A stretch of 64,000 nt of DNA from Alphaproteobacteria bacterium (GTDB lineage Bacteria; Pseudomonadota; Alphaproteobacteria; UBA828). Position numbers and translations under genes: made by a program. Each line of letters starts with the position of its first letter. Position 1 is the stretch's first letter. Below are positions 30,610 to 33,886 of the stretch, one piece after another. The notes beneath the pieces are model-generated. The model saw only the letters and a program-made list of their open reading frames with translations, was not told the origin of the DNA and did not search any database. The DNA lies in NCBI GenBank assembly GCA_965220745.1, contig CBDCQT010000007.1:224001-288000 (forward strand). Reading direction: 5' to 3'.

Positions 30610-31452
30610 TCACTTGCGGCGGGGGGCGGGCGCGGCACCGTAGAGCGTAAGCCGCACCGCGCGCCACGCCGCCTCCAGCCCGCGACGTAGCGTGGCGCCG
30701 TCCCGCGCCAGCAGGCGCACGCCGATGCCGGCCTCGTTGGGGAGTGCCGAGGCGCCGCCGTAAAACGCATCCGTCGGGGCTAGGGCCGAGCGGAGCGCTG
30801 CCAGAATGGCTTCGCATTCAGGTCCGCGGTGGGCGACCACGAAGCTGCCTTGCGCAGGCCAGCGCGTAATCTGGCCGCGCCCCGCCGCCAGACGGTCGCC
30901 GGCCACGGCGTAGCGCTCCAGCGCGAGCAGCCGGCCGCCCTCGTCGCGGATCCGCATCTCCGCTCCAAAACTCTCGAAGCGGCGGTCCTCACCGCCCGGG
31001 TCGTGGTGGGCGAAGCTCTCGGACGCGATGACCGTGGCCCCTGCCGCAGCCTCGATCTCCAGCACTGAGGTCAGCCGTGCGCCGGGGAACATGATCAGCG
31101 GGTCCGGCAGGTATTCAAGTAGGGCGCCGCCTGCGGCCTCCAAAGCGACCGTCTGCTGCGCCGGCGCCGCCGGCATGCGGTGCACGATGGTCGCCGCCTG
31201 GGTGGTCACGTGGGCGGCGCTGCCGACACCTGCGGCGCAGGTCAAGACCAGGTCCTCGCCCTGGTAGATGCCGCCGGAGACCGACTGGAGATAGAGCGTC
31301 AGCGCCCCCGCCGGCACCTCGTCGAGATAGAACGGCCGGGTGATGTGAAAGGGATAACCGACGCGCTGGCGTGCGATATAGCTCCGCCCGTCGGGCGCGC
31401 GGGCGAAGCGGAGCGCCGCTTGCGGCCCCTCGTTGGGCCGGGCGGCCGGCAT
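30610..31452 (-). CDS. ureD: Urease accessory protein UreD/UreH
   Basis: SGGIYQGEDL, VTTQAAT, LEYLPDPLIMF, VRLLA. Directly downstream of the ureC homologue. Confidence 0.88.
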   Translation of the reverse strand: MPAARPNEGPQAALRFARAPDGRSYIARQRVGYPFHITRPFYLDEVPAGALTLYLQSVSGGIYQGEDLVLTCAAGVGSAAHVTTQAATIVHRMPAAPAQQTVALEAAGGALLEYLPDPLIMFPGARLTSVLEIEAAAGATVIASESFAHHDPGGEDRRFESFGAEMRIRDEGGRLLALERYAVAGDRLAAGRGQITRWPAQGSFVVAHRGPECEAILAALRSALAPTDAFYGGASALPNEAGIGVRLLARDGATLRRGLEAAWRAVRLTLYGAAPAPRRK

Positions 31453-31476
31453 GGTGGCGGCAACCAAGAGACGGGC

Positions 31477-33186
31477 TCAGCGCAGCAGGTAGTTCTGGCC
31501 GAGGGTGATCGTGTCGATCGGCTCGCATGCCGCCAACGTGCCGTCGACGAAGACCTCGAAGGTCTGGGAGTCGACGCGGATGTCGGGGCAGGCGTCGTTG
31601 TGCAGCATGTCCTTCTTGGTGAGCTTGGTGAAGCTCCCGATCGGCAGAATCGGCTTGGCGAGCCCGAGCCGGCCCTGCACGTCGATGTCGAGCGCGCGCC
31701 GATGGGCGAAGTTGGCGCTCAGCGTCGCCGGCGCCCGCCCGTGATGGCCGAACTGCGGCCGCATGATCACCGGCTCGGTCTGGAAATAGCTGCCGGAGGG
31801 ATCGCCGCTCGCGCCCCACGCGACGAAGCCGCCCTTGATCACGCCGAAGGGCTTCATGCCGAAGAAGGCGGGCTTCCAGGTGACGAGGTCGGCCATCTTG
31901 CCCGGCTCCAGCGAGCCCACGTACTGATCGATGCCGAAGGCGATCGCCGGGTTGATGGTGTACTTCGCGATGTAGCGCTTGATGCGCTCGTTGTCCGCGT
32001 CGGCGGTGGTCTCTTCCGGTAGCCGCCCACGCTGGTCGCGCATCTTGCTGGCGAGCTGCCAGCAGCGCGTGATCACCTCGTTGATCCGCCCCATGCCCTG
32101 GCTGTCGGAGCCGAACATCGAGACCGAGCCGATATCGTGCAGCACGTCCTCGGCGGCGATGGTGCCGTGGCGCACCCGGCTCTCGGCGAAGGCCACGTCC
32201 TCCGGCAGGTCGAAGCGCAGCAGGTGGCAAGCCATGGTCATGTCGAGCTGCTCGTCGAAGACGTTGACCGTGTAGGGGTTGGTCGGATTGGTCGAGGACG
32301 GCAGGCAGTGCGGCTCGCCGTTGCAGCGGATGATGTCGGGTGCATGGCCGCCGCCGGAGCCTTCCGTGTGATACATGTGGATGGTGCGGCCTGCGATCGC
32401 CGCCATCGTGTCCTCGTAGAAGCCCGATTCGTTCAGCGTGTCGGTGTGGATCTGGACAGGGAAGTCATGCTCGGCCGAGGCGCGCAGGCAGGCGTCGATG
32501 GTGGCCGGCATGGCGCCGTAGTCCTCGTGGATCTTGACGCCGATGATGGCGCCGTCGAGGTGCTCTGCGACGGTCGCGGGATCGTGGGACGAGCCGCGGC
32601 CGAAGAAGCCGAAATTGATCGGCCACGCCTCCGACGCCTCATGCATGCGGTAGGTGTTCCAGGGACCACCGCAGTCGATGGCGAAGAGCGGCCCCATGGT
32701 GCCGCCGATCATGGTGGTGAGGCCGCTGGCCAGCGCGTGGTTGCACTGCTCCGCCGACATCCAGTGGACGTGCACGTCGATGCCGCCTGGCGTCACGATG
32801 AGGCCGCCGGCCGGGTAGTAGGTGGTGTTGGGGCCGCAGACGAGATTGGGGTCCACGCCGTCTTGCGTGTTGGGATTGCCAGCCTTGCCGACGCCCGCGA
32901 TCTTGCCGTCCTTGATGCCAATGTCGGCCTTCACCAGGCCGAGCACGGGATCGATGACGGTGGCGTTCTCCACCAGCATGTCGATGGCGCCGTCGGCGGC
33001 TGAGGTGTGGGCGTCGTAGGACATGCCGTCCCGCATCACCCGGCCAGCGCCGGTCCAGCATTCGTCGCCATAAGAGGTGTGGTCGTGCTCGATCTCGCCG
33101 ATCAGCGAGGTATCGCCGAGCCTGATCTTGTCGCCCTTGGTCGGCCCGTAGTAGCGGGCATAGGTCTCGCGCGCGATCTTCACCAT
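31477..33186 (-). CDS. ureC: Divergent urease alpha subunit (Ni-dependent amidohydrolase)
   Basis: [49 protein letters not shown] flap, [15 protein letters not shown]. Several normally invariant urease motifs are altered. Confidence 0.9.
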
Positions 33187-33190
33187 CTGC

Positions 33191-33886
33191 CTACGCTCCC
33201 CGGAATCCGCCCGCCTTGGCGCGGGCGATCGCCTGCTCCTTGACCGCAGGCGCGTCGATCATGCCCTCGGTGAGGGAATTGAAGCCGCTGACCCGGCCGC
33301 GGCCGCCGAACTCCACCAGCGCCACCTCCTTCTGTTGGCCCGGCTCGAAGCGGACGGCGGTGCCGGACGGGATGTCGAGACGCATGCCGAAAGTCGCCTG
33401 CCGGTCGAATTCGAGCGCCCGGTTGACTTCGAAGAAGTGGAAGTGGCTGCCGATCTGCACCGGGCGATCGCCGGTGTTGGTGACGGTGACCGAGCCGGTT
33501 CTCCGGCCTGCGTTCAGCTCGATTTCCTCGTCCGGCGTGATGATCTCGCCGGCACGAGGGGCGGGCGCGGTCTCGGCCTTACCTGGGCGGATCGGCTGAT
33601 GCACCGTGATGAGCTTGGTGCCGTCAGGGAACATCGCCTCGACGTGGATCACCGGAACCAGCTCGGGCACGCCGGGCAAGACGTCGTCCGACGTGAGGAT
33701 CTCCGCGCCGTAGCCCATGAGATCCTTGAGCGAGCGGCCCTCGCGGGCGCACATCAGGAGCTCGTCGCAGATATAGGCGAGGGCCTCAGGGTGACTCAGC
33801 TTGATGCCGCGGCGCCTGTGCTCGCGCGCGAGCTGGGCGGCCGTGAAGATGGTGAGCCGCTCCTTCTCCGTCGGATTGAGGTTCAT
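33191..33886 (-). CDS. ureAB: Fused urease gamma/beta subunit
   Basis: Gamma part ([11 protein letters not shown]...[11 protein letters not shown]) is in frame with beta part ([19 protein letters not shown]...GTAVRFEPG). RBS AGGGAG before ATG 33886. Confidence 0.92.

What the first reader, a model, noticed from the sequence alone, without database searches (positions are those of the whole stretch)
31477..33186. Urease homologue with an intact nickel site but a rebuilt substrate pocket: candidate hydrolase for a non-urea substrate
Seen in sequence: all six dinickel ligands are present (H139, H141, K218, H247, H273, D361), as are H220 and flap residues C320-H321. Established knowledge: canonical ureases such as Klebsiella aerogenes UreC have near-invariant GGGTGPxxGTxATTCTPGPW, KFGGGK, DEHLDM, CHHL, SDSQAMG and GDxNASIPTPQP; the Ala of ATT and the Ala of SQAMG line the urea-binding site. 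Here these read [16 protein letters not shown] (four residues shorter, ATT lost), WTGAGR, DEQLDM, CHLL, SDSQGMG and [12 protein letters not shown]. The changes cluster at the pocket, flap and subunit interface, while the ORF and metal site are undamaged. Inference: this is a functional urease-fold Ni enzyme with altered specificity, for example for a substituted urea, carbamate, hydroxyurea-like or amide substrate.
Basis: partly seen in the sequence, partly recalled or inferred. Interest (0 to 1): 0.85.

Follow-up and report, generated by a model that had tools for sequence, protein, structure and literature searches.

The report
Divergent fused-subunit urease paralogue
This gene encodes an intact, conserved nickel-urease large subunit of a little-studied branch of the family; it is most likely one of three urease isozymes in this bacterium, and a new substrate is possible but unproven.

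Summary
The ORF is real. It lies on the minus strand (31477-33186, 569 aa) in a tight ure(AB)-ureC-ureD operon. The claim of a "rebuilt pocket" is overstated. In 95 aligned UreC sequences, the six metal ligands and the equivalents of K. aerogenes H219, E220, D221, G277, H320 and R336 are invariant. The only first-shell change is A363 to G, and every non-canonical clade shares it. The short loop and SDSQGMG are traits of a large ure(AB)C superclade. Its clade A usually sits with ureEFGD, and in about half of the loci with Urt-like urea transporters. Clade A is the only UreC in 5 of 10 genomes checked. The window protein belongs to the sister clade B. Its own subclade has conserved signatures (FAIDCGG, CHLL, HEDY) under strong purifying selection (dN/dS 0.04-0.10). 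No canonical urease was found in this genome, which holds three divergent UreC paralogues; 22 of 49 genomes of the order hold the same trio. Best reading: a nickel urease isozyme matured by accessory proteins encoded elsewhere (0.55). Altered substrate remains a live rival (about 0.3). I found no paper characterising any member biochemically.

The parts
33191..33886 (-). ure(AB): fused urease gamma/beta small subunit, 231 aa from the ATG at 33886. The longest ORF runs to 34012, but homology starts at its residue 43.
   Evidence: Pfam Urease_gamma 43-141 and Urease_beta 155-250 of the long ORF; NCBIfam NF009671 'bifunctional urease subunit gamma/beta' 339 bits against a cut-off of 243. Median length in relatives is 231 aa. 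dN/dS 0.11-0.19. Its stop lies 4 nt before the ureC start.
31477..33186 (-). ureC-type large (alpha) subunit, 569 aa, the subject of the finding. It belongs to clade B of the ure(AB)C superclade.
   Evidence: Pfam Urease_alpha plus Amidohydro_1; TIGR01792 730.8 bits against a cut-off of 680. 48-52% identical to solved ureases over the full length, TM 0.95. Residues verified. Tree placement. dN/dS 0.04-0.10.
30610..31467 (-). ureD: urease accessory (scaffold) protein, 285 aa, starting 9 nt after the ureC stop.
   Evidence: Pfam UreD 125.7 bits. 51% identical to the UreD beside the 81%-identical UreC of L018, but only 29% identical to the UreD of the genome's C12 urease locus. dN/dS 0.13-0.26.

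Best explanation
The gene encodes the catalytic subunit of a functional, nickel-dependent urease-family enzyme of the fused-small-subunit ure(AB)C type. It most likely still hydrolyses urea. It would be one of three urease isozymes in this sponge- or marine-associated alphaproteobacterium.

Shown: the operon is ure(AB)-ureC-ureD; the full catalytic set is intact; all three genes are under purifying selection.

Inferred: Ure(AB) and UreC assemble as in known ureases. K218 is carbamylated and bridges two Ni ions bound by H139, H141, H247, H273 and D361. Urea binds with help from H220, and from the backbone carbonyls of G278, G364 and the shortened 163-174 loop. The bridging hydroxide attacks, and flap H321 protonates the leaving ammonia. 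Nickel is loaded through the cognate UreD encoded in the operon. UreF, UreG and UreE would be supplied in trans from the genome's other urease loci: C12 for E, F and G, and C3 for a second F. The subclade-specific changes (shorter loop, CHLL, HEDY, WTGAGR) would then tune kinetics, flap dynamics or regulation rather than change the reaction.
For: 1. Catalytic set. The six metal ligands and the equivalents of K. aerogenes H219, E220, D221, G277, H320 and R336 are invariant in 95 of 95 aligned UreC sequences of all clades, this one included. The pocket list comes from PMC7433671.
2. Family scores. It passes the NCBIfam equivalog TIGR01792, 730.8 against 680. It matches solved ureases at E 1e-178 to 1e-185. 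The AF2 model has pLDDT 87 and TM 0.95 to H. pylori, K. aerogenes, S. pasteurii and jack bean ureases.
3. Selection. dN/dS is 0.04-0.10 for ureC within the genus, 0.13-0.26 for ureD and 0.11-0.19 for ureAB.
4. Accessory genes. Of 22 loci of its own subclade, UreD is present in 21 and UreAB in 21. UreG is in 9, UreF in 9 and UreE in 8, that is, in the roughly 80%-identical marine relatives. This indicates a nickel-maturation-dependent enzyme.
5. Shared substitutions. SDSQGMG and the short xIDCGG loop also occur in sister clade A. In 79 clade A loci, UreD is present in 71, UreG in 70, UreF in 69, UreE in 64, and Urt-like genes in 36-43. In the Methylophaga locus, UrtB, C, D and E pass their NCBIfam cut-offs. 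Clade A is the only UreC in 5 of 10 genomes tested: Hyphomicrobium sp. GJ21, Methylophaga sulfidovorans, and three with complete or near-complete chromosomes.
6. The genome holds UreE, UreF and UreG elsewhere.
7. Contigs from four RNA libraries cover ureC at 90-97% identity. This is weak evidence, because DNA carry-over is not excluded.
Against: 1. No member of the ure(AB)C superclade was found to be biochemically characterised. 'Clade A is a urease' is therefore itself an inference from gene context.
2. The UrtA-like binding protein beside clade A scores below its NCBIfam cut-off, 399 against 492.75.
3. 29 of 30 genomes of the order that carry this subclade also carry at least one other UreC, and the exception is only 84% complete. 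It is never shown to be a sole urease.
4. 22 of 49 genomes keep all three paralogue types. Long-term retention argues for distinct roles.
5. None of the 22 loci of the subclade has a urea-type binding protein or permease nearby.
6. The subclade has 40 positions fixed differently from canonical ureases. About 24 of them are not shared with clade A, including residues next to catalytic ones: L322 after H321, Y223 after D222, and the loop.
7. Its TIGR01792 score is only 51 bits above the cut-off, against 981 bits for a canonical UreC.
Confidence: 0.55

Rival explanations
1. Neofunctionalised nickel amidohydrolase. The enzyme keeps the urease dinickel chemistry, but the shortened beta2-alpha2 loop, G364, L322 and Y223 reshape the second shell. 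The preferred substrate would then be a urea derivative or small amide made inside the cell, such as an N-substituted urea, a ureido acid, a carbamate or formamide. The other two paralogues would handle urea or further substrates.
For: Three divergent UreC types are retained together in 22 of 49 genomes across at least three genera of the order. Each type has its own conserved loop and flap signature. Clade B as a whole varies at positions that are invariant in canonical ureases and in clade A: flap Cys (A12 C3 V2 I1 G1 in 19 other clade B sequences), the residue after the catalytic His, and the loop. No Urt-type transporter lies beside any of the 22 loci of the subclade. Other clade B members sit beside non-urea genes: an SBP_bac_5 ABC binding protein, S15 and M19 peptidases, an MttB-family methyltransferase and an M17 aminopeptidase. 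The subclade is almost never the only UreC in a genome.
Against: All first-shell residues except the A363 equivalent are conserved, and that residue acts through its backbone. G364 and the short loop also occur in clade A, which is often Urt-linked. No conserved neighbour points to a substrate; neighbours differ between genera. I know of no urease-family member with a different physiological substrate (recalled; none surfaced). Characterised paralogous ureases such as H. mustelae UreA2B2 are still ureases (PDB title; the rest recalled).
Confidence: 0.3
2. Urease isozyme specialised for a different metal or a different maturation route, by analogy with the iron urease UreA2B2 of Helicobacter mustelae. 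In that case loss of ureE, F and G from this locus would reflect independence from the nickel-delivery GTPase.
For: In the window's genus and one neighbouring genus, the locus holds only ure(AB)-ureC-ureD (11 of 22 subclade loci lack E, F and G). The model matches the H. mustelae UreA2B2 structure as well as it matches nickel ureases.
Against: Relatives at about 80% identity, with the same pocket motifs, keep ureE, F, D and G next to the structural genes. UreD is retained here under purifying selection. UreE, F and G exist elsewhere in the genome. No ligand change is seen.
Confidence: 0.08
3. Inactive or decaying duplicate, or a non-catalytic (moonlighting) urease-like protein.
For: The locus has lost ureE, F and G. 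The genome has two other UreC copies.
Against: dN/dS is 0.04-0.10. All 569 codons align without gaps in the 13 subclade copies compared, at 80-99% identity. Every catalytic residue is retained in 24 of 24 subclade members. Contigs from RNA libraries cover the gene.
Confidence: 0.05

Closest known systems
Canonical nickel urease alpha subunit (K. aerogenes UreC, S. pasteurii UreC, H. pylori UreB, jack bean urease)
   Same: Same fold (TM 0.95, rmsd about 2 A). 48-52% identity over the full length. Identical metal ligands, carbamylated-Lys position, H219, D221, H320 and R336 equivalents, and flap Cys-His. Partner gamma/beta subunits and UreD lie adjacent.
   Different: The beta2-alpha2 loop is four residues shorter ([16 protein letters not shown] against GGGTGPATGTxATTCTPGPW). 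Further changes are A363 to G, H321 to L, H312 to Q, W222 to Y, KFGGGK to WTGAGR, and GDPNASIPTPQP to [12 protein letters not shown]. The small subunits are fused. ureE, F and G are absent from the locus.
ure(AB)C-type 'third' urease clusters, ureEF(AB)CGD, of Pseudomonas syringae B728a (Psyr_2197) and Bradyrhizobium sp. BTAi1, described phylogenetically in PMC2492869 (passages read)
   Same: Fused gamma/beta subunit and the same superclade (SH-aLRT 97). A P. syringae protein, P0073, is 65% identical. Shared SDSQGMG and the shortened xIDCGG loop.
   Different: Those belong to clade A: TVGIDCGG, CHHL, HEDW, gene order E-F-(AB)-C-G-D, often with Urt-like transporters. The window protein is in sister clade B: one residue shorter again, with FAIDCGG, CHLL and HEDY. 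Its gene order is (AB)-C-D here and E-F-(AB)-C-D-G in relatives, with no Urt. No activity data for either clade were found.
Helicobacter mustelae UreA2B2 (second, iron-containing urease; PDB 3QGA)
   Same: A paralogous urease with a fused gamma/beta small subunit, encoded apart from the ureEFG accessory genes. The fold matches equally well.
   Different: UreA2B2 is a close paralogue of a canonical Helicobacter urease, and its independence from nickel is established (recalled). Here UreD is retained, and close relatives keep ureEFDG, so nickel maturation is expected.
Brucella ure2 / Yersinia-type second urease clusters (PMC2492869, PMC1983905)
   Same: An example of a genome carrying more than one urease cluster of different phylogenetic origin.
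   Different: ure2 has separate ureA and ureB genes and the order ureABCEFGD, and it groups with Yersinia and Photorhabdus ureases, not with the fused-subunit clade.

Membership tests
Urease alpha subunit (UreC; TIGR01792, PF00449 + PF01979; EC 3.5.1.5) | Dinickel ligands: two His of HxH, carbamylated Lys, two further His, and Asp | tested here: met
   H139, H141, K218, H247, H273 and D361 are present. These columns are invariant in 95 of 95 aligned sequences. Carbamylation itself cannot be tested.
Urease alpha subunit (UreC; TIGR01792, PF00449 + PF01979; EC 3.5.1.5) | Catalytic and substrate-orienting side chains: K. aerogenes H219, D221, H320 and R336, plus flap C319 | tested here: met
   H220, D222, H321, R337 and C320 are present. 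Residue roles come from PMC7433671.
Urease alpha subunit (UreC; TIGR01792, PF00449 + PF01979; EC 3.5.1.5) | Backbone-carbonyl donors of the urea pocket (A167, G277, A363) and M364 | tested here: inconclusive
   G278 and M365 are conserved. A363 is replaced by G364. The A167 equivalent is A169, F168 or C172, depending on how the shortened loop is aligned. Only backbone atoms are involved, so a structure is needed.
Urease alpha subunit (UreC; TIGR01792, PF00449 + PF01979; EC 3.5.1.5) | Near-invariant canonical motifs GTxATTCTPGPW, CHHL, SDSQAMG and GDPNASIPTPQP | tested here: not met
   Here they read [20 protein letters not shown] and [12 protein letters not shown]. All 19 canonical sequences carry the canonical forms.
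Urease alpha subunit (UreC; TIGR01792, PF00449 + PF01979; EC 3.5.1.5) | Score above the curated family cut-off | tested here: met
   TIGR01792 scores 730.8 bits against a cut-off of 680, and NF009686 scores 783 against 354. A canonical UreC scores 981 and clade A scores 811-826.
Urease alpha subunit (UreC; TIGR01792, PF00449 + PF01979; EC 3.5.1.5) | Urease fold: TIM barrel plus beta domain with a helix-turn-helix flap | tested here: met
   AF2 model with pLDDT 87 and pTM 0.92, and helices 309-320 and 328-336 at the flap. Foldseek gives TM 0.94-0.95 to 39 urease entries; the next fold (hydantoinase) gives TM 0.49.
Urease alpha subunit (UreC; TIGR01792, PF00449 + PF01979; EC 3.5.1.5) | Encoded with gamma/beta subunits and the UreD, E, F, G maturation genes | tested here: met
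   Ure(AB) and UreD are adjacent. UreE, F and G lie at the C12 locus and a second UreF at C3. Relatives at about 80% identity have E, F, D and G in the same cluster. Whether the trans-encoded proteins serve this enzyme is inferred.
Urease alpha subunit (UreC; TIGR01792, PF00449 + PF01979; EC 3.5.1.5) | Hydrolysis of urea | not testable with these tools
No paper with activity data for this clade was found.
ure(AB)C-type urease clusters (PMC2492869) | Fused gamma/beta small-subunit gene directly upstream of ureC | tested here: met
   The 231-aa Ure(AB) carries both Pfam domains and passes NF009671.
ure(AB)C-type urease clusters (PMC2492869) | Phylogenetic grouping of UreC with the P. syringae second urease and its relatives | tested here: met
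   The superclade of 62 rows has SH-aLRT 97. Within it, clade A scores 98, clade B 99 and the window's subclade 100 (quick LG+G4 tree, so support is indicative only).
ure(AB)C-type urease clusters (PMC2492869) | Gene order ureE-ureF-ure(AB)-ureC-ureG-ureD | tested here: not met
   The window has (AB)-C-D only. Relatives at about 80% identity have E-F-(AB)-C-D-G.

The most novel reading that the evidence does not exclude
The window protein and its subclade (FAIDCGG / CHLL / HEDY) are not ureases in the physiological sense. They would be nickel amidohydrolases for a urea-like compound generated inside the cell, such as an N-substituted urea or ureido acid from creatinine, purine or polyamine breakdown in sponge-associated bacteria. 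They would form one arm of a three-enzyme set of urease-family paralogues, each with its own substrate. This would be the first substrate diversification known in the urease family.
Probability: 0.3. Interest if true: 0.85.

Novelty: new variant of a known kind. Interest (0 to 1): 0.45.

Why it matters
Urease is treated as a family with a single substrate, and databases name every member 'urease subunit alpha'. This window shows that a whole order of marine and sponge-associated Alphaproteobacteria mostly lacks the textbook urease. Only one canonical copy was seen in 49 genomes. Instead these bacteria keep up to three divergent UreC types, each with its own fixed loop and flap signature around an unchanged dinickel core.

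If all three hydrolyse urea, they are a natural experiment on how much of the 'invariant' urease pocket is dispensable. That would also show that ureC-based surveys and primers built on canonical motifs may miss or mis-score them. If they differ in substrate, the urease fold would gain its first new reaction specificities. In either case the ure(AB)C superclade is large (at least 468 loci in one scan), and I found no biochemical study of it.

Tried and rejected
1. Gene neighbourhood as a guide to the substrate. Neighbours of the window operon are an OmpR-type response regulator, a histidine kinase, DUF1499, a DegP-like protease, a zinc-type oxidoreductase, a NUDIX protein and a sugar-type ABC system. 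They are syntenic only within the genus. Marine relatives instead have an ornithine-cyclodeaminase-family gene, an SDR, a beta-lactamase-family gene, MlaA and Sel1. One relative has xanthine-dehydrogenase-like and aminotransferase genes. No conserved partner emerged.

2. Riboswitch or other RNA clue. Rfam at gathering threshold on the window and four loci gave only the 5_ureB_sRNA model antisense to ureC. This is probably an echo of coding conservation.

3. Literature. Eight searches found no biochemical study of fused-subunit second ureases and no urease homologue with another substrate. The 1993 K. aerogenes histidine mutagenesis paper could not be fetched. The statement that H312A and H321A variants keep activity is therefore recalled only and carries no weight here.

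4. The 50%-identity representative library. The protein falls among ordinary urease clusters (best hit 54% identical), so this library cannot resolve the clades.

5. RNA-library contigs. They cover the gene at 90-97% identity, but they are contigs, so they show neither strand nor level nor absence of DNA. Gaps in cover over ureD and the flanks carry no meaning.

6. Pocket geometry or docking. Structure prediction returns no coordinates, so the effect of the shorter loop on pocket volume could not be measured. The loop block 161-170 has a mean pLDDT of only 74.

No supplements were requested.

8. Pseudogene or decay reading: rejected on dN/dS.
Full report
**What is there.**

The finding's coordinates hold a 569-aa ORF on the minus strand, 31477-33186. 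It is the middle gene of a tightly packed operon:
- Upstream is a fused gamma/beta small subunit, ure(AB), at 33191-33886. It is 231 aa long and its stop lies 4 nt before the ureC start.
- Downstream is ureD at 30610-31467, starting 9 nt after the ureC stop.

On the same strand follow an OmpR-type response regulator and a histidine kinase; DUF1499 (opposite strand) and a DegP-like protease come next. On the other side are a divergent zinc-type oxidoreductase, a NUDIX gene and a sugar-type ABC system. These neighbours are shared only with close relatives and give no functional link.

**Checking the observation.**

The canonical counterparts are real. In my alignments, 19 canonical UreC sequences from bacteria and archaea carry GGGTGPATGTxATTCTPGPW, CHHLD, SDSQAMG and GDPNASIPTPQP. 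The jack bean and H. pylori chains show the same. The loop is four residues shorter.

Two points need correction.
- Whether the 'Ala of ATT' is lost depends on the alignment. MAFFT and the HMMER alignment to jack bean urease place A169 under it. The HMMER alignment to H. pylori places C172 there.
- 'Rebuilt pocket' is too strong. A review lists the K. aerogenes active-site enclosure as A167, H219, E220, D221, G277, C319, H320, R336, A363 and M364. It states that A167, G277 and A363 act through backbone carbonyls (PMC7433671, passages read). Here all are identical except A363 to G364, with A167 ambiguous.
- Across 95 aligned sequences of every clade, the six metal ligands and the H219, E220, D221, G277, H320 and R336 equivalents never vary.

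**Where it sits in the family.**

Homologues number in the thousands, and databases name all of them 'urease subunit alpha'.

A tree of 92 sequences was built (quick search, LG+G4, SH-aLRT only, so support is indicative). It separates canonical ureases from a superclade with fused small subunits (support 97). The superclade splits in two.

Clade A (support 98):
- It includes a Pseudomonas syringae protein, Methylophaga, Hyphomicrobium, Labrys and Aminobacter, and this genome's own C3 copy.
- Its motifs are GGSLGPITVGIDCGG, CHHL, SDSQGMG and GDSAASLMTCEP.

Clade B (support 99):
- The loop is one residue shorter again, and the flap is variable.
- The window protein belongs to a well-supported subclade of clade B (support 100; 22 rows in the tree, 24 sequences in the alignment).
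- Its members are 75-100% identical to the window protein and come from alphaproteobacterial genomes assembled from metagenomes.
- Its motifs are conserved: GG(T/S)[13 protein letters not shown], (A/S)CHLLR, HEDY and WTGAGR.
- Its stem branch is not unusually long.

The fused-subunit cluster type, ureEF(AB)CGD, was described phylogenetically in 2008 for P. syringae B728a and Bradyrhizobium BTAi1, without biochemistry (PMC2492869, passages read).

So SDSQGMG, the shortened xIDCGG loop and the altered GD...EP segment are clade-wide traits. They are not features of this protein alone.

**Is clade A a urease?**

In 79 clade A loci:

| Gene | Loci with it |
|---|---|
| UreAB | 78 |
| UreD | 71 |
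| UreG | 70 |
| UreF | 69 |
| UreE | 64 |
| Urt-like ABC genes | 36-43 |

Many of these loci are cut by contig ends.

- In a Methylophaga locus, UrtB, UrtC, UrtD and UrtE pass their NCBIfam equivalog cut-offs. The binding protein scores 399, below its cut-off of 492.75.
- Clade A is the only UreC homologue in 5 of 10 genomes tested: Hyphomicrobium sp. GJ21, Methylophaga sulfidovorans DSM 11578, and three with complete or near-complete chromosomes.
- This makes urea hydrolysis by clade A likely. It also implies that G at the A363 position and a short loop are compatible with that activity. No assay supports this yet.

**Evidence that the window enzyme is functional and nickel-dependent.**

- Pairwise dN/dS for ureC is 0.04-0.10 within the genus and 0.18-0.19 to 81-84% relatives. 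All 569 codons align without gaps.
- ureD (0.13-0.26) and ure(AB) (0.11-0.19) are also constrained.
- The operon's UreD is 51% identical to the UreD beside an 81%-identical UreC, but only 29% identical to the UreD of this genome's C12 locus. It is therefore the cognate scaffold.
- Of 22 loci of the subclade, UreD is present in 21, UreG in 9, UreF in 9 and UreE in 8. The marine relatives have E-F-(AB)-C-D-G, whereas the window's genus and one neighbouring genus keep only (AB)-C-D.
- With the queries used, the genome encodes UreG and UreE only at C12. It encodes UreF at C12 and C3.
- The AF2 model (pLDDT 87) superposes on solved ureases at TM 0.95. Confidence is low only at 47-54, 251-254 and 276-280, and moderate over the short loop.
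- Contigs from four RNA libraries cover ureC at 90-97% identity. This is weak support for expression.
- DNA holders of the stretch are sponge and marine metagenomes.

**What keeps the altered-substrate idea alive.**

The genome has three UreC homologues and none is canonical:

| Locus | Identity to window protein | Gene context |
|---|---|---|
| C7 (the window) | 100% | ure(AB)-ureC-ureD |
| C3 (clade A) | 64% | ureF-ure(AB)-ureC, between two other amidohydrolases, near an aminotransferase and an MFS transporter |
| C12 | 49% | ureA-B-C-E-F-G-D, near hydantoinase/oxoprolinase genes |

A survey of the 49 genomes of the order gave these counts (assigned by identity bands, with motifs verified on 16 fetched loci):
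- The window's subclade is present in 30 genomes.
- It is accompanied by at least one other UreC in 29 of those 30. The exception is 84% complete.
- All three types occur together in 22 genomes.
- Only one canonical-motif copy was seen (L162).

Further points in favour:
- The C12 type is 89-97% conserved across genera and lies beside a Urt-like transporter in three of seven loci fetched. All five subunits of the one tested with NCBIfam (L164) score below their cut-offs.
- No urea-type binding protein or permease lies within about 10 kb of any of the 22 loci of the subclade.
- Forty positions are fixed differently from canonical ureases. About 24 of them are not shared with clade A, including L322 (after catalytic H321), Y223 (after D222), M164 and L167 in the loop, and A47 and R49.
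- Elsewhere in clade B the flap Cys is usually replaced (A12 C3 V2 I1 G1 in 19 sequences). Neighbours there include SBP_bac_5 binding proteins, S15 and M19 peptidases, an MttB-family methyltransferase and an M17 aminopeptidase.
- Long-term retention of three paralogues with distinct signatures fits different roles. It does not say whether the difference lies in substrate, kinetics, metal or regulation.

**Verdict.**

| Reading | Confidence |
|---|---|
| Functional nickel urease isozyme of the ure(AB)C type, clade B, matured through its own UreD with UreE, F and G supplied in trans | 0.55 |
| Variant using a different metal or maturation route | about 0.08 |
| Inactive copy | about 0.05 |

The finding is less singular than it looked. 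The underlying pattern is still worth an experiment: an uncharacterised, widespread urease superclade, and an order of bacteria that runs on three non-canonical paralogues.

**Limits.**

- No coordinates were available, so pocket volume and docking could not be assessed.
- No supplements were requested.
- The tree is a quick search without mixture models.
- Identity bands stand in for clade assignment except where motifs were checked.
- The roles of K. aerogenes H312 and H321 (said to be non-essential) are recalled, not verified.

Noticed in passing
G000:C12:394005-395696 (L005 8997-10703, minus strand); relatives L163-L167, L177: The third UreC paralogue is the most deviant from canonical ureases (about 51% identical). 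It has DIHPHF, QIHAD, GGGNAP (the His of GGGHAP replaced by Asn), CHNL and SDSQGVG (the M364 equivalent replaced by Val). Yet it is 89-97% conserved across genera, has a full ureABCEFGD set, and in three of seven loci sits beside a Urt-like ABC transporter; the one tested with NCBIfam (L164) scores below all cut-offs. It may be the order's main urease or something else.
   Followed up: partly
G000:C3:134625-139334 (L004 6984-13107): The clade A paralogue in this genome has only ureF upstream. It is flanked by two other amidohydrolase-family genes (481 and 408 aa), with a class III aminotransferase and an MFS transporter nearby. This looks like a catabolic island rather than the usual Urt-ureEF(AB)CGD layout.
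   Followed up: no
window 32736-32980 (+), also L018 10169-10451 (-): The Rfam family 5_ureB_sRNA (an H. pylori antisense RNA) matches above its gathering score (46.7 and 55.5 bits against 40), antisense to the 5' part of ureC. This is most likely an echo of conserved coding sequence, not evidence of an sRNA.
   Followed up: no
L170, L175 (G040, G038) and L171, L172 (G019): Genomes of the same order hold further UreC types with yet other loop and flap signatures. One has ALPIDG-GS with SDAMGMG and lies beside a Peripla_BP/UrtA-like gene and a CO-dehydrogenase/xanthine-dehydrogenase-like molybdenum enzyme. Others have FIVVDQ-GS or LVVDV-GS with LGHMLR or LAHALR and HEDF.
   Followed up: partly
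L023-L026 (Gammaproteobacteria, Ectothiorhodospiraceae MAGs), L046-L047: Clade B UreC genes lacking the flap Cys (VAHRLN, TVHHLS) lie next to an SBP_bac_5 ABC binding protein, S15 X-Pro dipeptidyl-peptidase-family and M19 dipeptidase genes, or LysR regulators and an MttB-family methyltransferase.
   Followed up: no
L028 8354-9988: A single 544-aa ORF carries UreF, urease gamma and urease beta domains in one frame. It is an apparent UreF-Ure(AB) fusion directly upstream of a clade B ureC. The ORF call is mechanical, so the true start is unchecked.
   Followed up: no
L034 1069-2888, L044, L045, L049 upstream of ureE: Many clade A loci carry a second UrtA/AmiC-like binding protein next to a roughly 200-aa gene with no NCBIfam hit (cluster 9). 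This arrangement recalls AmiC/AmiR amide sensors; that resemblance is recalled and untested.
   Followed up: no
L075 6614-8125 (Acidocella facilis ATCC 35904): An M17 leucyl-aminopeptidase gene overlaps the start of ureE in a ureE-F-(AB)-C-D cluster. Its UreC has ESHAHF, FDVSC-SGP and LAHAMN and barely passes TIGR01792, 686 against 680.
   Followed up: no
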